Assembly: GCF_003018255.1 (NCBI RefSeq)
Contig: NZ_CP027440.1
Reading direction: 5' to 3' (one strand)
Length of the DNA stretch: 64,000 bases
Source of the DNA: Escherichia coli
Lineage (GTDB): Bacteria > Pseudomonadota > Gammaproteobacteria > Enterobacterales > Enterobacteriaceae
Shown here: positions 43,101 to 49,100 of the stretch, in pieces
How the letters are laid out: every line of letters starts with the position of its first letter
Position numbering within the stretch: position 1 is the first letter of the stretch
Made by a program: the position numbers

Positions 43101-46100
43101 TGCCTATATAATCCACCGCATTATTGTCATTTTATTTTGGATATCCAATTTTTTCGTGGTGTATATGTCTAATAAAATCTTTACGCATTCCCTACCTATG
43201 CGCTATGCCGATTTTCCAACGCTGGTTGATGCTTTGGACTACGCCGCTCTGAGTAGCGCCGGAATGAATTTTTATGACAGACGTTGCCAACTTGAAGATC
43301 AACTGGAATATCAGACGTTAAAAGCGCGTTCCGAAGCTGGTGCGAAAAGGTTGTTATCGCTGAACCTGAAAAAAGGCGATCGCGTGGCGCTGATTGCCGA
43401 AACGAGTAGCGGGTTTGTAGAGGCTTTTTTTGCCTGCCAGTATGCCGGCTTAGTCGCCGTCCCGTTGGCGATTCCAATGGGCGTCGGTCAGCGGGATTCC
43501 TGGAGCGCCAAACTGCAGGGTTTACTGGCAAGTTGCCAGCCCGCAGCCATTATCACTGGTGATGAGTGGTTGCCACTGGTCAATGCCGCGACGCATAACA
43601 ACAACCCCGAATTACATGTTTTAAGCCACGCCTGGTTTAAGGCATTACCGGAAGCCGATGTTGCGCTCCAGCGTCCAGTTCCAAACGATATCGCCTACCT
43701 CCAGTACACCTCCGGCAGCACCCGTTTTCCCCGTGGCGTCATTATCACCCATCACGAAGTGATGGCTAATCTACGTGCTATAAGCCACGATGGCATTAAA
43801 TTACGCCCTGGCGACCGCTGCGTCTCCTGGCTGCCTTTCTACCATGATATGGGACTGGTCGGCTTTCTCCTGACCCCCGTCGCCACGCAGCTTTCAGTAG
43901 ATTATTTGCGCACTCAGGATTTTGCCATGCGTCCTCTGCAATGGCTTAAATTGATCAGTAAAAATCGCGGCACCGTTTCCGTTGCACCGCCGTTTGGCTA
44001 TGAATTGTGCCAGCGCCGCGTGAATGAAAAAGATCTCGCTGAACTGGATCTTTCCTGCTGGCGCGTCGCTGGTATTGGAGCAGAACCGATCTCCGCAGAA
44101 CAACTCCATCAATTCGCTGAATGTTTTCGTCAGGTTAACTTTGACGATAAAACTTTCATGCCGTGCTACGGACTGGCAGAAAATGCGCTGGCTGTCAGCT
44201 TCTCTGATGAAGCCTGCGGGGTTGTGGTTAACGAAGTGGATCGCGACATCCTCGAATACCAGGGTAAAGCCGTCGCGCCGGGTGCTGAAACACGCGCCGT
44301 ATCGACTTTCGTCAACTGCGGTAAAGCGTTGCCGGAACATGGCATTGAAATCCGCAATGAAGCAGATATACCTGTCGCGGAACGTGTGGTAGGCCATATT
44401 TGCATCTCCGGCCCCAGCCTGATGAGCGGGTACTTTGGCGACCAGGTTTCGCAAGACGAGATTGCCGCGACGGGCTGGTTAGACACCGGCGACCTTGGTT
44501 ATCTGCTGGACGGTTATCTGTATGTCACCGGACGCATTAAAGATCTGATTATTATTCGTGGCCGTAATATCTGGCCGCAGGATATTGAATACATTGCGGA
44601 ACAGGAACCGGAAATTCATTCTGGCGATGCGATTGCTTTTGTTACCGCCCAGGAAAAAATCATTTTGCAGATCCAGTGTCGGATCAGCGACGAAGAACGT
44701 CGCGGGCAGCTTATCCACGCGCTGGCAGCTCGGATCCAAAGCGAATTTGGCGTTACCGCGGATATCGATCTGTTGCCGCCCCACAGTATTCCCCGAACAT
44801 CCTCCGGCAAGCCTGCCCGTGCGGAAGCGAAAAAACGTTATCAGAAGGCTTATGCTGCCAGTCTTCATGTGCAGGAATCCCTGGCATGAATCAAACTGTC
44901 GCGGTGACGGGCGCTACCGGGTTTATCGGTAAATATATTATTGATAACCTGCTCGCCCGCGGCTTTCACGTTCGCGCATTAACGCGTACTGCCCGCGCTC
45001 ACGTCAATGATAATCTCATCTGGGTGCGCGGTTCGCTGGAAGATACACATTCGCTTAGCGAACTGGTTGCCGGAGCCAGCGCGGTGGTCCATTGCGCCGG
45101 ACAAGTGCGCGGACACAAAGAAGAGATTTTTACCCGCTGTAACGTTGACGGCAGCCTGCGCCTGATGCAAGCGGCAAAAGAGAGCGGCTTTTGCCAACGT
45201 TTTCTGTTTATCTCTTCGCTGGCGGCGCGCCATCCCGAACTCTCCTGGTACGCAAATTCCAAACACGTCGCCGAACAACGACTGATCGCAATGGCTGACG
45301 AAATTACGCTGGGCATTTTTCGCCCGACAGCCGTGTATGGTCCCGGCGATAAAGAGTTAAAACCGCTGTTTGACTGGATGCTGCGCGGCCTGCTGCCACG
45401 ACTTGGTGCGCCAGATACACAACTCTCTTTCCTGCACGTCACCGATTTTGCGCAAGCAGTGGGTCAGTGGTTAAACGCCGAAACTGTACAGACGCAAACC
45501 TATGAATTATGCGATGGCGTCGCTGGCGGCTATGACTGGCAACGCGTACGACAGCTTGCCGCCGAAGCCCGTTGTGGTTCTGTGCGGATGGTTGGCATTC
45601 CTCTGCCGCTACTCACCTGCCTTGCGGATATCAGTACTGCGTTGAGTCGCCTGGCAGGTAAAGAACCTATGCTGACCCGCTCGAAAATTCGTGAATTAAC
45701 CCACGCCGACTGGTCGGCAAATAATAACCGTATTTCTGAAGATATTAATTGGTTTCCCGGGATTAGCCTGGAACACGCATTACGCAACGGGCTATTTTGA
45801 TTGTCTTGTTTAAAGGTGTGTTAACGTTTCTATGGTAAATCGTGAAATAGTAATGGATTACATCCTTTCCTGTTTACAGGATTTGGTCGAAAACGGTGTG
45901 GAAATTAAGCCCGACAGCGATCTCGTCAACGATCTTGGCCTGGAGTCGATCAAAGTGATGGATCTCTTAATGATGCTGGAAGACAGATTCGATATTTCCA
46001 TTCCTATTAATATTCTGCTGGATGTCAAAACCCCTGCGCAATTAATGGAAACTCTACTTCCATGGCTGGAGAATAAATAATGGGGCTATACGATAAATAT

Positions 46101-49100
46101 GCGCGCCTTGCTGGCGAGCGCCTGCAATTTAGTGACAACGGGTTAACACCATTTGGCACCTGTATTGATGAAGTGTATTCCGCCACCGAAGGCCGGATCG
46201 GCAATAAAAAAGTGATTCTGGCCGGGACCAATAATTATCTCGGTTTAACCTTTAATCATGATGCTATCCGCGAAGGTCAGGCAGCGTTAGCGGCCCAAGG
46301 CACTGGCACCACCGGTTCTCGTATGGCAAACGGCAGTTATGCGCCGCATCTGGCGTTAGAGAAAGAGATTGCCGAGTTTTTCAATCGCCCTACCGCTATC
46401 GTTTTTTCAACCGGTTATACCGCTAATTTAGGTGTCATCAGCGCACTTGCCGACCATAACGCCGTGGTGTTACTGGATGCCGACAGCCACGCCAGTATTT
46501 ATGACGCCTGTTCTCTCGGCGGCGCAGAGATTATTCGTTTCCGCCATAATGACGTCAACGATCTGGAACGGCGCATGGTCCGCCTCGGTGAACGGGCGAA
46601 AGAGGCGATTATTATCGTTGAAGGCATCTACAGTATGCTCGGTGACGTTGCGCCGCTGGCAGAAATTGTTGATATCAAACGTCGTCTCGGTGGTTATTTG
46701 ATTGTCGATGAAGCACATTCGTTTGGCGTGTTAGGCGCAACAGGCCGCGGACTGGTTGAAGCCGTTGGCGTTGAAGACGACGTGGATATTATCGTCGGCA
46801 CCTTCAGTAAAAGTTTGGCTTCCATTGGTGGTTTTGCCGTGGGTTCAGAAGCGATGGAAGTGCTGCGCTACGGCAGCCGCCCGTATATTTTTACCGCCTC
46901 TCCTTCTCCGTCCTGCATTGCGACCGTGCGCTCGTCGTTAAGAACCATTTCCACACAACCAGAGCTGCGGCAAAAACTGATGGATAACGCCAACAATCTG
47001 TATGACGGTCTGCAAAAACTGGGTTATGAGTTAAGTTCACATATTAGCCCGGTAGTGCCAGTAATAATCGGTTCGAAAGAGGAAGGTTTACGCATCTGGC
47101 GCGAGCTTATTTCGCTGGGCGTTTATGTGAATCTTATCCTGCCACCTGCCGCGCCTGCAGGCATCACGCTGCTGCGCTGTAGCGTAAACGCTGCCCACAG
47201 TCGTGAGCAAATCGATGCCATCATTCAGGCATTTGCTACTCTGAAGCAGTAATGTGAGCCCGCTGTGGTGTTGCGCCACGGCGGGTTTAATGTTGTCTGT
47301 CATACCAATACACCAGGCTCAACGCCACCAGCACAAACGCTACCGGTAAACCGAGCGCGGTAACAGGTGCGCTCAACGCAAATAACAATCCCAGATTGAC
47401 CATGATTTGATAGCTGATCCAGGTGAGTAAGCCAACGATGACGCCTACAGCGAGACGGCTACCCATCCCAGGCGAACGCGGGGCGCTAAAGGTAAACGGC
47501 ACAGCCAGCAAAATCATCGCCAGGGTCAAGATGGGTTGTCCCAGTTTTTCCCACAGTGCAAGGCGGTATTCGCTGCTGGGTTGCCCGGTTTCCTGCAAAT
47601 AATGGATGTAATGATTAAGTTGACGGACAGAAAAAGTATTTCCCGGCATCGATAACTCTTCAAGATTCATACTGGTGAAGGCCGATTGCCAGGGAAGATT
47701 ATCAGATGTTTCCTGCGTTTCTTTGCCATTCAGCCATTTTTTATGATTCACACCATGCAGGATCCACGTTTTGTCGTCTTCAATGGTAGCACTGCGCGCA
47801 TAAATGTAGGATTCGAGCGAGAGATCATCGCGGTAATGAAATATCTCCACGTCCACCGGCTGGCCCTGCTCGTTCAGCGATTTCACCGTCACAAATTCAT
47901 TACCACGCCTGGCCCACAGCATATTGCCGGTAATGTCATCGTCCTCCCCCAACGCAGTGGCAGTCGATTTGATTTGCAGCGCCTGTTGCTGCAATGGCGA
48001 CGCCACCCACTCATCTATCGCGCCTAATGAAACAGTCCACAATATCCCGGCAACCAGCGCCACCAGTGCAATACGGAAGATAGAAAACCCCGTGCTGCGA
48101 ATGGCGGTAAGCTCACTGTTTTTCGATAACTGCCCCAGGCCGACAATCCCTCCCAATAAGGCGATAAACGGCGAAAGTTCGACCAGTGTGCGCGGTAAGG
48201 TCATCAGCACCACCAGCACCGCCTGAGTCCAGCGATAACCACCCGGGCTGACATCATCCAGTTCGTTAATCAGGTTGAAGGTGGTAAAAAGCGGCAGCAA
48301 TAGCCCTGCGGCGGCGGCAAAACCGAGAAAGAGATGACGGATTAAATAGCGACTGAAAACATTCATCGGGAAAATTTCTGCAGCAAAGAGAAGTCGCGTG
48401 CGACCAACATCAGCAGGCCCATTAGCATGAGTCCGGGTACTAACCACAAACCAGGAATGAGGGGAATCGCGCCGTTAGCCACCAGCGTACGGCAGACGTC
48501 GCCGCCATAAAAAATGGCAACAAACAGCAACGTCAGTGGCAATAACGTTGAAAATCGCCCTTGCCGCGGTTTTACCCGACTTAATGAAATGGCCAGCAGC
48601 GCCATCAACAATGCTGTCAGGCCACGGCTTTGTCGCCATTGCAGTTCGGCATGATCGGCAGGAAAGGCGGAGCGCGCCAGCTCCGTGACCGATTTTGCTT
48701 TGCGTTTGACGTTAGGGCTTTGATCCAGCGGATTCAGATGTAATTGCAGATTACGGTAGATCTGTTCGTTGTCGTCACGCCCCTGATGATCGAGAAGATA
48801 GGCGGTCCCGTTATGCAACATAACGGTCGGTTTCTCAGGTGATGGGTCAACCACATCAACCGAACGGGCGCGGAAAATGCGGGTTCGATTAGCAGTAGAA
48901 GTATAAATCAGCGCATCAGTCAGGCGATTATTATCCTGATCAACCGTCTGCGAAAGGATCATTCGTCCGTTATCGTTAGTGTTAAATTTCTTTGCCCGCA
49001 ACTGGCGAACATCCAGCTCCGACTGTGACTGTTGCTCCAGTTGATAAATCTGCGCATAAGCCCACGGACGACCATACATCGACAGAAGGGTGACAAAAAT

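What the first reader, a model, noticed from the sequence alone, without database searches (positions are those of the whole stretch)
43165..47252. Translationally coupled operon: acyl-adenylate ligase, SDR reductase, ACP and Spt-like alpha-oxoamine synthase
Four co-directional genes with overlapping junctions (ATGA at 44886-44889, TAATG at 46078-46082). They encode an adenylating enzyme (YTSGSTRFPRGV, TGDLGY), an NAD(P)-binding SDR (GATGFIGK, YANSK), a small acidic carrier protein (DLGLESI) and a class II aminotransferase with the PLP lysine in GTFSKSLAS. E. coli carries its housekeeping alpha-oxoamine synthases BioF and Kbl elsewhere, so this is an additional one. An AOS next to a dedicated ACP and an acyl-activating enzyme implies condensation of an ACP-bound acyl chain with an amino acid, followed by reduction. 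This gene set matches the core of bacterial sphingoid-base synthesis as described for Caulobacter and Bacteroidetes (Spt, ACP, acyl-ACP synthetase, ketoreductase). E. coli is not known to make sphingolipids or related amino-lipids, so the product is probably undescribed. A CqsA-type alpha-hydroxyketone signal synthase is an alternative.
Basis: partly seen in the sequence, partly recalled or inferred. Interest (0 to 1): 0.9.

Follow-up and report, generated by a model that had tools for sequence, protein, structure and literature searches.

The report
Known E. coli sphingolipid (ceramide) operon

Summary
Four co-directional genes lie at 43165-47252 with ATGA and TAATG overlaps, and all the quoted motifs are present.

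The functional reading, sphingoid-base synthesis, is also correct. The novelty claim is not:
- NCBI's curated model NF047599 names the fourth gene spt (598 bits, cutoff 500). The BioF, Kbl, CqsA and ALAS models all fail their cutoffs.
- The full locus is in 4058 of 5426 complete E. coli genomes and is annotated there as spt.
- The proteins are 96-100% identical to BL21(DE3) ECD_02851-02854. Padilla-Gómez et al. 2022 (PMC9386255) showed that this ACP carries 4'-phosphopantetheine, and that AasR + AcpR + SPT from E. coli make 3-oxo-sphinganine.
- The divergent neighbour yghO is the bacterial ceramide synthase homolog. The SDR is the CerR homolog.
- K-12 lost the operon to an IS5-associated deletion.

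Two things remain open. No native E. coli sphingolipid is reported in the searched literature. A conserved neighbouring module also has no assigned role: LptF2/G2, a YtfJ-like protein, a CHAD-like protein, the YghQ flippase and the P-loop proteins YghR/S/T. I found this module next to spt in many Enterobacterales and in some Beta- and Gammaproteobacteria.

Verdict: real, correctly interpreted, already known, low interest.

The parts
41651..42793 (-). yghO, homolog of the bacterial ceramide synthase (bCerS/Aca, Caulobacter CC_1154); divergently transcribed from the operon
   Evidence: PGAP names it 'protein YghO'. It has no Pfam or NCBIfam family. Published BLAST of CC_1154 against ECD_02850 gives 44% identity, E=1e-107 and 98% coverage. 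It sits upstream of aasR on the opposite strand in most of the 80 spt loci.
42794..43164 (.). 371-bp AT-rich divergent intergenic region, presumed regulatory
   Evidence: GC is 31% against 52% for the operon. There is no good sigma-70 consensus on the + strand and one weak match on the - strand. There is no Rfam match.
43165..44889 (+). aasR, fatty acyl-AMP ligase acting as a dedicated acyl-ACP synthetase
   Evidence: NF006624 scores 867 bits against a cutoff of 600. It is 97.7% identical to BL21 ECD_02851. AasREc + AcpREc + SPTEc give 3-oxo-sphinganine in vivo. dN/dS is 0.12.
44886..45800 (+). cerR/epi, extended-SDR NAD(P)-dependent reductase (CerR homolog)
   Evidence: It matches only SDR/epimerase-family models, all below their cutoffs. 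It has GATGFIGK and YANSK. It is 95.7% identical to ECD_02852. CC_1164 against ECD_02852 gives 34% identity and E=7e-38. Its position between aasR and acpR is conserved. dN/dS is 0.17.
45832..46080 (+). acpR, specialised acyl carrier protein (Ser39 in DLGLES)
   Evidence: It is 100% identical to ECD_02853 and shares accession WP_000248097.1. That protein was labelled with beta-[3H]alanine, which shows a 4'-phosphopantetheine group. ACP models match at E about 1e-8, below the housekeeping AcpP cutoffs.
46080..47252 (+). spt, serine palmitoyltransferase (PLP lysine in GTFSKS)
   Evidence: NF047599 scores 598 bits against a cutoff of 500. PDB 2JG2 SPT scores 377 bits. H159, D231, H234, K265 and R390 are conserved. 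It is 98.2% identical to ECD_02854, which was assayed. dN/dS is 0.05.
47255..47289 (.). 16-bp-stem GC-rich hairpin between the convergent spt and lptG2 genes; a likely bidirectional terminator
   Evidence: 16 pairs, 9 of them G-C. The T tract is weak, so a terminator function is an inference.
47287..48366 (-). lptG2, second-copy LptG-type permease
   Evidence: TIGR04408 scores 310 bits. PGAP start as. In Caulobacter, LptF2/G2 form a complex with each other and with LptB, and genetic evidence ties them to sphingolipid transport. It lies next to spt in many loci.
48363..49433 (-). lptF2, second-copy LptF-type permease; 4-nt overlap with lptG2
   Evidence: TIGR04407 scores 320 bits.
49463..50023 (-). 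YtfJ-family protein with a hydrophobic N-terminus
   Evidence: TIGR01626 scores 212 bits. Within spt loci it is found only in Enterobacterales.
50035..50859 (-). 274-aa protein with no sequence family and a CHAD-like two-four-helix-bundle fold
50859..52208 (-). yghQ, MOP-superfamily flippase; 1-nt overlap with the CHAD-like gene
   Evidence: It gives a weak MOP flippase match. PGAP names it 'lipopolysaccharide biosynthesis protein'. It lies next to spt in Enterobacterales and several Beta- and Gammaproteobacteria.
52254..53012 (-). yghR, divergent P-loop kinase-fold protein
   Evidence: The dTMP-kinase model scores 31 bits against a cutoff of 83. It co-localises with spt.
53044..53757 (-). yghS, divergent P-loop kinase-fold protein
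   Evidence: The dTMP-kinase model scores 25 bits against a cutoff of 83. Pfam gives only Walker-A noise. The AF2 model (pLDDT 81) matches the dTMP/deoxynucleoside kinase fold at E about 1e-6 and 15-20% identity.
53932..54624 (+). yghT, third P-loop paralog, divergent from yghS

Best explanation
This is the E. coli version of the proteobacterial (Caulobacter-type) dihydroceramide pathway.

- AasR adenylates a free long-chain fatty acid and loads it on the 4'-phosphopantetheine arm of the dedicated carrier AcpR.
- Spt, a PLP enzyme, condenses L-serine with acyl-AcpR and releases CO2, giving 3-oxo-sphinganine. These two steps have been shown experimentally for proteins 98-100% identical to those in the window.
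- By homology, the divergent YghO (bCerS) N-acylates the long-chain base.
- By homology, the SDR (CerR) reduces the 3-keto group, giving dihydroceramide.
- By analogy with Caulobacter, the convergent operon then handles the lipid. LptF2/LptG2 would borrow LptB to extract it from the inner membrane. YghQ would be a candidate flippase. YghR/S/T and the CHAD-like protein are candidate head-group or processing factors.

The gene overlaps fit stoichiometric co-production of the ligase with the reductase and of the carrier with the synthase.
For: Identity of the parts:
- The curated Spt equivalog model passes (598 bits, cutoff 500). The FAAL model passes (867 bits, cutoff 600).
- SPT structures are the best PDB matches, and the catalytic His, Asp, His, Lys and Arg are conserved.
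- The NJ tree puts the protein inside the Spt clade. It is 31-32% identical to E. coli BioF and Kbl, 47% to Sphingomonas SPT and 55% to Caulobacter Spt.

Equivalence with the characterised system:
- BL21(DE3) has the same gene order, with 95.7-100% protein identity.

Experiments in PMC9386255:
- AcpREc incorporates beta-alanine.
- AasREc + AcpREc + SPTEc give 3-oxo-sphinganine in vivo.
- SPTEc prefers acyl-AcpR.

Homology of YghO and the SDR:
- YghO is 44% identical to bCerS and the SDR is 34% identical to CerR.
- Both were named as the E. coli homologs.

Conservation:
- The layout of divergent yghO plus aasR-cerR-acpR-spt recurs from Enterobacterales to Nitrospira, Geobacter and Methylotenera.
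- dN/dS is 0.05-0.17.
- The full locus is in 75% of complete E. coli genomes.

Transport:
- LptF2/G2 bind LptB, and genetic evidence ties them to sphingolipid transport in Caulobacter. The E. coli UTI89 locus is drawn as homologous.
Against: - No paper in the searched library reports a sphingolipid in unmodified E. coli.
- BL21(DE3) carrying empty vectors, or over-expressing SPT alone, showed no 3-oxo-sphinganine. The chromosomal aasR/acpR therefore appear silent in laboratory culture.
- There is no convincing sigma-70 promoter upstream on the + strand.
- The roles of the E. coli SDR and YghO rest on 34% and 44% identity plus synteny. The source paper itself says 'might'.
- The order of acylation and reduction is disputed between two groups.
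- The in vitro selectivity of AasR for AcpR over CoA was shown for the Caulobacter enzyme, not the E. coli one.
Confidence: 0.9

Rival explanations
1. The operon is intact but cryptic. It is kept silent in E. coli and makes no lipid in vivo, so it is a transferable cassette with no current function.
For: The native locus gave no detectable product in BL21(DE3) controls. The upstream region is AT-rich and has no clear promoter. K-12 and about 25% of complete genomes lack the full locus without obvious harm.
Against: There is strong purifying selection: dN/dS is 0.05-0.17 within E. coli and 0.03 for spt against Hafnia. All genes are intact in 4058 genomes. The whole 13-gene neighbourhood is retained across many Enterobacterales genera despite rearrangements. 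Silence in rich-medium culture does not exclude conditional expression.
Confidence: 0.1
2. The alpha-oxoamine synthase is a CqsA/LqsA-type autoinducer synthase making an alpha-hydroxyketone signal.
For: It belongs to the same superfamily. The CqsA model gives a sub-threshold match of 226 bits.
Against: 226 bits is well below the 428 cutoff, while Spt scores 598 against 500. CqsA structures score 127 bits against 377 for SPT. There is no cqsS-like sensor nearby. The 98%-identical enzyme makes 3-oxo-sphinganine from serine.
Confidence: 0.01
3. It is a spare BioF or Kbl paralog for biotin or threonine metabolism.
For: There are sub-threshold hits to bioF (336 bits) and Kbl (298 bits).
Against: Both are below their curated cutoffs of 426 and 460. 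The protein is 31-32% identical to E. coli BioF and Kbl, which fall outside the Spt clade in the tree. The genomic context is an ACP and a FAAL, not bio or tdh genes.
Confidence: 0.01
4. The synthase uses cysteate or another amino acid and makes a sulfonolipid (capnine-like) or deoxy-sphingoid base rather than a serine-derived base.
For: Cysteate-C-fatty acyltransferase is a detectable relative (PDB 28eh, 209 bits). SPTs are known to accept alanine or glycine weakly (abstract of PMC10196870).
Against: The match to serine palmitoyltransferases is much stronger: 377 bits in PDB, and the curated equivalog passes. The E. coli enzyme gave a product that co-migrates with 3-oxo-sphinganine.
Confidence: 0.03

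Closest known systems
E. coli BL21(DE3) ECD_02850-ECD_02854 (yghO/aca, aasR, epi, acpR, spt); Padilla-Gómez et al. 2022, PMC9386255
   Same: It is the same chromosomal locus between glcC and pitB, with the same gene order and overlaps. AcpR is 100% identical, Spt 98.2%, AasR 97.7% and the SDR 95.7%.
   Different: Only allelic differences. These include a one-codon Asn indel in aasR and a different annotated aasR start.
Caulobacter crescentus ceramide genes CC_1154 (bCerS/Aca) and CC_1162-CC_1165 (Spt, AcpR, CerR/Epi, AasR), with lptF2/lptG2
   Same: The same five enzymes are clustered, and LptF/LptG paralogs and a putative flippase lie in the same island. Identities are Spt 53%, AasR 42%, bCerS 44% and CerR 34%.
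   Different: E. coli has no CpgABC head-group genes (CpgB is an LCB5/DAG-kinase-type enzyme) and no LptC2. Instead it carries YghR/S/T, a CHAD-like protein and a YtfJ-like protein, none of which I found in the Caulobacter loci. The E. coli Spt scores best against the model NCBI names 'SerpalmtaseBetaP' (598 bits). Against 'SerpalmtaseAlphaP' it scores 429 bits, below that model's cutoff of 670.
Sphingomonas paucimobilis serine palmitoyltransferase (PDB 2JG2)
   Same: The same fold and catalytic set: His159, Asp231, His234, Lys265 and Arg390. It is 47% identical.
   Different: Arg378 of the Sphingomonas enzyme is Leu here. It is hydrophobic in 79 of the 80 other Spt sequences compared and Thr in one. 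Caulobacter also has Leu.
BioF, Kbl, ALAS and CqsA (other alpha-oxoamine synthases)
   Same: The same PLP fold-type I alpha-oxoamine synthase superfamily, with the same Schiff-base lysine.
   Different: All four curated models fail their cutoffs: 336 against 426, 298 against 460, 218 against 339 and 226 against 428. Identity to E. coli BioF and Kbl is about 31%.

Membership tests
Bacterial serine palmitoyltransferase (NCBIfam NF047599 equivalog) | Whole-protein score above the curated cutoff, and above all sibling alpha-oxoamine synthase models | tested here: met
   598 bits against a cutoff of 500. bioF, Kbl, CqsA and ALAS are all below their own cutoffs.
Bacterial serine palmitoyltransferase | PLP-binding lysine and the catalytic His/Asp/His/Arg of solved SPTs | tested here: met
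   The equivalents of H159, D231, H234, K265 and R390 are all present and are invariant in 81 sequences.
Bacterial serine palmitoyltransferase | Branches with characterised SPTs, not with BioF or Kbl | tested here: met
   An NJ tree with E. coli BioF and Kbl as outgroups. It is a limited tree: there are no CqsA or ALAS sequences in it and no bootstrap.
Bacterial serine palmitoyltransferase | Catalyses serine + acyl-thioester to 3-oxo-sphinganine | not testable with these tools
   Shown in the literature for the 98.2%-identical BL21 enzyme.
AasR/AcpR/Spt tripartite system (Padilla-Gómez 2022) | A small ACP gene immediately upstream of spt, with a modifiable serine | tested here: met
   acpR overlaps spt by 1 nt and has Ser39 in DLGLES. 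The protein is 100% identical to ECD_02853, which was shown to carry 4'-PPT.
AasR/AcpR/Spt tripartite system | A FAAL-type adenylating enzyme in the neighbourhood that acylates AcpR | tested here: met
   The FAAL model passes its cutoff. The protein is 97.7% identical to AasREc, which supports 3-oxo-sphinganine synthesis only with its cognate AcpREc. Selectivity against CoA in vitro was shown only for the Caulobacter enzyme.
Bacterial ceramide pathway (Spt + bCerS + CerR triad) | A bCerS homolog is present | tested here: met
   yghO is adjacent and divergent. The published value is 44% identity to CC_1154 at E=1e-107. Synteny is conserved. Its activity in E. coli has not been shown.
Bacterial ceramide pathway (Spt + bCerS + CerR triad) | A CerR-type SDR homolog is present | tested here: met
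   It is 34% identical to CC_1164 at E=7e-38. It has the Rossmann GxxGxxG and YxxxK motifs. Its operon position is conserved. Its substrate has not been shown.
Bacterial ceramide pathway | The organism actually contains ceramide or another sphingolipid | not testable with these tools
   No report was found for native E. coli. BL21 controls were negative.
CqsA-type alpha-hydroxyketone autoinducer synthase | Score above the curated cutoff of NF005526 | tested here: not met
   226 bits against 428. The PDB CqsA structures score 127 bits.
BioF / Kbl | Score above the curated cutoffs of TIGR00858 and NF005394 | tested here: not met
   336 against 426 and 298 against 460.
dTMP kinase (the PGAP name for YghS and YghT) | Score above the TIGR00041 cutoff | tested here: not met
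   25-31 bits against 83. Only the general kinase fold is shared.
CHAD domain (for the 274-aa protein) | Pfam CHAD sequence match | tested here: not met
   There is no Pfam hit at E <= 10 apart from noise.
CHAD domain (for the 274-aa protein) | Two-four-helix-bundle CHAD fold | tested here: met
   [not shown]

The most novel reading that the evidence does not exclude
Natural E. coli isolates and many other Enterobacterales make a complex, probably phosphorylated, sphingolipid that has not yet been described. Its ceramide core would come from this operon plus YghO. Its head group would be built or processed by the P-loop trio YghR/YghS/YghT and the CHAD-like protein, a module unrelated to Caulobacter CpgABC. 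YghQ and an LptB-LptF2-LptG2 transporter would move it to the outer membrane. The lipid has been missed because K-12 deleted the locus and because expression is conditional.
Probability: 0.3. Interest if true: 0.6.

Novelty: already known. Interest (0 to 1): 0.15.

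Why it matters
The finding as stated adds nothing new. The operon is published, has been tested biochemically and is named in RefSeq.

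Its practical value is as a reminder that K-12 is not representative of E. coli. Three quarters of complete E. coli genomes, including BL21, UTI89 and STEC strains, carry a complete ceramide-synthesis and export island.

The open questions are worth asking:
- Do commensal and pathogenic E. coli actually put a sphingolipid in their outer membrane, and when?
- What is its head group?
- Does it affect host signalling, polymyxin susceptibility or outer-membrane robustness, as it does in Caulobacter and Bacteroides?

The conserved YghQ / CHAD-like / YghR/S/T module gives concrete candidate genes for those experiments.

Tried and rejected
- **CqsA, BioF, Kbl and ALAS readings.** All were rejected by curated HMM cutoffs, PDB score ranking and an NJ tree.
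- **Arg378 to Leu as a possible defect.** Arg378 of Sphingomonas SPT is Leu here. I rejected this as a defect because Arg378 is peculiar to Sphingomonas. Seventy-nine of the 80 other Spt sequences have a hydrophobic residue there and one has Thr. Caulobacter also has Leu.
- **YghR/S/T as CpgB-type ceramide kinases.** Rejected, because CpgB belongs to the LCB5/DAG-kinase family and these proteins do not.
- **Defence-system reading of the unnamed neighbours.** PADLOC gave nothing meaningful.
- **Sequence-family searches on YghO and the 274-aa protein.** Pfam and NCBIfam gave nothing.
- **PDB sequence search with YghS.** It gave only P-loop noise.
- **Rfam scan of the island.** No matches.
- **Promoter scan.** No convincing + strand promoter for the operon.
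- **Literature on a native E. coli sphingolipid or on YghR/S/T function.** Nothing relevant.
- **Stankeviciute et al. 2022 (Nat Chem Biol).** Not held in the library. The reaction order is therefore cited second-hand.
- **Using the DETEC-S792 annotation for the rest of the window.** Not valid. That strain matches the window exactly only across the island.

Full report
**1. Observation**

- 43165-44889, 574 aa from the ATG. An upstream in-frame GTG at 43156 opens the ORF.
- 44886-45800, 304 aa.
- 45832-46080, 82 aa.
- 46080-47252, 390 aa.

ATGA at 44886-44889 and TAATG at 46078-46082 are real stop/start overlaps. A 31-nt gap separates the SDR and ACP genes. Every quoted peptide motif is present in the translations. 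PGAP annotates the same four CDS in a strain that is 100% identical over 41600-50900.

**2. What the proteins are**

Against NCBIfam:
- The first protein passes the fatty acyl-AMP ligase model NF006624 (867 bits, cutoff 600).
- The fourth passes the serine palmitoyltransferase equivalog NF047599 (598 bits, cutoff 500). It fails every sibling model: bioF 336 against 426, Kbl 298 against 460, CqsA-type 226 against 428, ALAS 218 against 339. It also fails the alphaproteobacterial Spt model, 429 against 670.
- The second protein matches only SDR/epimerase-family models, all below their cutoffs.
- The third matches ACP models at E about 1e-8, below the housekeeping AcpP cutoffs.

Against solved structures, the best matches are Sphingomonas SPTs at 377 bits. 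Next come Sphingobacterium SPT (264), cysteate acyltransferase (209), Kbl (205), BioF (about 188) and CqsA (127). His159, Asp231, His234, Lys265 and Arg390 (S. paucimobilis numbering) are conserved.

A neighbour-joining tree with E. coli BioF and Kbl as outgroups places the window protein in an Enterobacterales clade inside the Spt clade. It is 31-32% identical to BioF and Kbl, 47% to S. paucimobilis SPT and 55% to Caulobacter Spt. Arg378 of the Sphingomonas enzyme is Leu here. That arginine is unique to Sphingomonas among the 81 sequences compared, so it is not a defect.

**3. It is already known**

The full locus is present in 4058 of 5426 complete E. coli genomes and is annotated there as 'spt: serine palmitoyltransferase'.

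BL21(DE3) has the identical arrangement. Window proteins compared with BL21 proteins:

| Protein | Identity |
|---|---|
| AcpR | 100% |
| Spt | 98.2% |
| AasR | 97.7% |
| SDR | 95.7% |

Padilla-Gómez et al. 2022 (PMC9386255) worked on exactly these BL21 genes, ECD_02850-02854. They reported the following:
- ECD_02853 (AcpREc) incorporates beta-[3H]alanine, so it carries 4'-phosphopantetheine.
- Co-expression of AasREc, AcpREc and SPTEc yields 3-oxo-sphinganine.
- AasREc works with its own AcpR but not with the Caulobacter one.
- SPTEc prefers acyl-AcpR as its thioester substrate.

The same paper names ECD_02852 as the homolog of the Caulobacter reductase (epi/CerR) and yghO (ECD_02850) as the homolog of the N-acyltransferase (aca/bCerS). 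It states that the five genes are clustered only in C. crescentus and E. coli BL21 among the strains it compared. Its supplementary table gives these identities to the Caulobacter proteins:

| Protein | Identity | E-value |
|---|---|---|
| YghO / bCerS | 44% | 1e-107 |
| SDR / CerR | 34% | 7e-38 |
| AasR | 42% | 1e-155 |
| Spt | 53% | 4e-144 |

A 2026 preprint draws the E. coli UTI89 'sphingolipid operons' next to those of Caulobacter and S. wittichii.

**4.

K-12 carries an IS5 that replaces everything from the 5' end of yghO to the 3' part of yghQ. That removes aasR, cerR, acpR, spt, lptG2, lptF2, the ytfJ-like gene and the 274-aa gene.

**5. Mechanism**

Shown, for near-identical proteins:
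- AasR loads a fatty acid on holo-AcpR.
- Spt condenses L-serine with acyl-AcpR to give 3-oxo-sphinganine.

Inferred by homology and synteny:
- YghO N-acylates the base.
- The SDR reduces the 3-keto group to give dihydroceramide.

Two orders are published. Olea-Ozuna and colleagues propose reduction then acylation. Stankeviciute and colleagues propose acylation then reduction.

Inferred by analogy:
- LptF2/LptG2 would work with the housekeeping LptB to export the lipid. In Caulobacter these paralogs form a complex with each other and with LptB. They cannot be deleted while the anionic sphingolipid is made.

The operon is under purifying selection. dN/dS against BL21 is 0.12 for aasR, 0.17 for cerR and 0.05 for spt. 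For spt against Hafnia it is 0.03, with dS saturated.

**6. Anatomy beyond the finding**

The island has four transcription blocks:
- yghO on the minus strand.
- aasR-cerR-acpR-spt on the plus strand.
- lptG2, lptF2, ytfJ-like, 274-aa gene, yghQ, yghR and yghS on the minus strand. They are transcribed from yghS towards lptG2, with a 4-nt lptF2/lptG2 overlap, a 1-nt yghQ/274-aa overlap and gaps of 8-45 nt.
- yghT on the plus strand.

A 16-bp-stem hairpin lies between the convergent spt and lptG2 genes. The 371-bp region between yghO and aasR is 31% GC. It has no good sigma-70 match on the + strand and no Rfam element. BL21 controls made no 3-oxo-sphinganine unless AasR and AcpR were supplied from plasmids. 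This suggests the native operon is silent in standard culture.

**7. Comparative survey**

I scanned one genome per species with a two-sequence Spt alignment. This returned 80 loci. I then ran tblastn with all island proteins against them.

- The layout of divergent yghO plus aasR-cerR-acpR-spt is conserved in Pseudocitrobacter, Hafnia paralvei, Serratia, Shimwellia, Tatumella, Mangrovibacter, Erwinia endophytica, Pluralibacter, Citrobacter youngae, Cedecea and Rosenbergiella. Spt identity there is 74-87%.
- The same layout occurs at 52-59% Spt identity in Nitrospira, Geobacter, Methylotenera, Rhodocyclaceae, Burkholderiales and others.
- LptF2/G2 lie near spt in many lineages.
- In Enterobacterales, YghR/S/T lie next to spt in every locus with enough flank. 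YghQ and the 274-aa protein also do, except in Erwinia endophytica (L013). The module is sometimes rearranged.
- YghR/S/T and YghQ are also near spt in Methylotenera, Rhodocyclaceae and a betaproteobacterial MAG, at 24-28% identity for YghQ, and in Luteibacter and Dyella, at 64-65%. The 274-aa protein was detected in four of these six loci.
- YghR/S/T and the 274-aa protein are absent from the Caulobacter loci.

**8. What the unnamed neighbours are**

- YghR/S/T score 25-31 bits against the dTMP-kinase model, whose cutoff is 83. Pfam sees only the Walker A motif.
- A model of YghS (pLDDT 81) has the dTMP/deoxynucleoside-kinase fold at 15-20% identity. These are therefore P-loop phosphotransferases with an unknown acceptor. 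The RefSeq name 'dTMP kinase' is not supported.
- Caulobacter's head-group enzymes are different. CpgB is an LCB5/DAG-kinase-type ceramide kinase.
- I found no literature on YghR/S/T function.

**9. Verdict**

The finding is real and its functional reading is right, but it is already known and characterised. Interest is low.

What remains open:
- The native lipid of E. coli. No report was found.
- How the locus is regulated.
- The role of the conserved YghQ / CHAD-like / YghR/S/T module.

Noticed in passing
window 50035-54624; loci L005-L020, L035, L036, L046, L065, L068, L070: In Enterobacterales, YghR/S/T lie next to spt in every locus with enough flank. YghQ and the 274-aa protein also do, except in Erwinia endophytica (L013). 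YghR/S/T and YghQ are also near spt in Methylotenera, Rhodocyclaceae, a betaproteobacterial MAG, Luteibacter and Dyella, and the 274-aa protein was detected in four of those six loci. YghR/S/T and the 274-aa protein were not found in the Caulobacter loci. This is a candidate sphingolipid head-group or flipping module that I did not find discussed in the literature.
   Followed up: partly
[not shown]
   Followed up: partly
window 52254-54624: RefSeq names YghS and YghT 'dTMP kinase', but they score only 25-31 bits against a cutoff of 83. They share only the P-loop kinase fold, so the annotation is probably misleading.
   Followed up: yes
NC_000913.3 3130146-3131340 (L087); corresponds to window ~42754-51140: In K-12, IS5 (insH9) replaces about 8 kb of the island. 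It truncates yghO at its 5' end and yghQ at its 3' end, and removes the whole spt operon and lptF2/G2.
   Followed up: yes
window 47139-47141 (Leu354 of Spt): The residue equivalent to Arg378 of S. paucimobilis SPT, which I recall as a described substrate-carboxylate contact, is Leu here. It is hydrophobic in 79 of the 80 other Spt sequences and Thr in one, and it is also Leu in Caulobacter. The arginine may be a Sphingomonas speciality.
   Followed up: partly
window 42794-43164: The 371-bp divergent intergenic region is 31% GC, has no clear + strand sigma-70 promoter and has no Rfam hit. Published BL21 controls suggest the chromosomal operon is silent in laboratory culture. Xenogeneic silencing (for example by H-NS) is a guess that was not tested.
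   Followed up: partly
window 47255-47289: A strong inverted repeat (16-bp stem, 9 G-C pairs) sits exactly between the convergent spt and lptG2 stops and overlaps the lptG2 stop codon. It is probably a shared terminator.
   Followed up: no
window ~43597 (aasR codon 145): There is a one-codon Asn insertion in an Asn run (HNNNPE) relative to BL21 AasR. PGAP also calls different aasR start codons in different strains (574 aa here, 562 aa in BL21).
   Followed up: no
window 47287-49433: The island encodes LptF and LptG paralogs but no LptB or LptC paralog. As proposed for Caulobacter, the transporter would have to borrow the housekeeping LptB ATPase.
   Followed up: no
window 1-41600 versus 41600-50900: The island stretch is 100% identical to strain DETEC-S792, but the flanks are not. 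That strain carries IS66/IS21 and toxin-antitoxin island DNA upstream of the gsp genes, which this window lacks. The best whole-genome match to window 1-25000 is only 98.0%. Window 1-25000 aligns in one piece with yggS...speC, tRNA-Phe and the gsp (T2SS) operon of strain FDAARGOS_1373 (97.5% identity), which suggests a mosaic history.
   Followed up: partly
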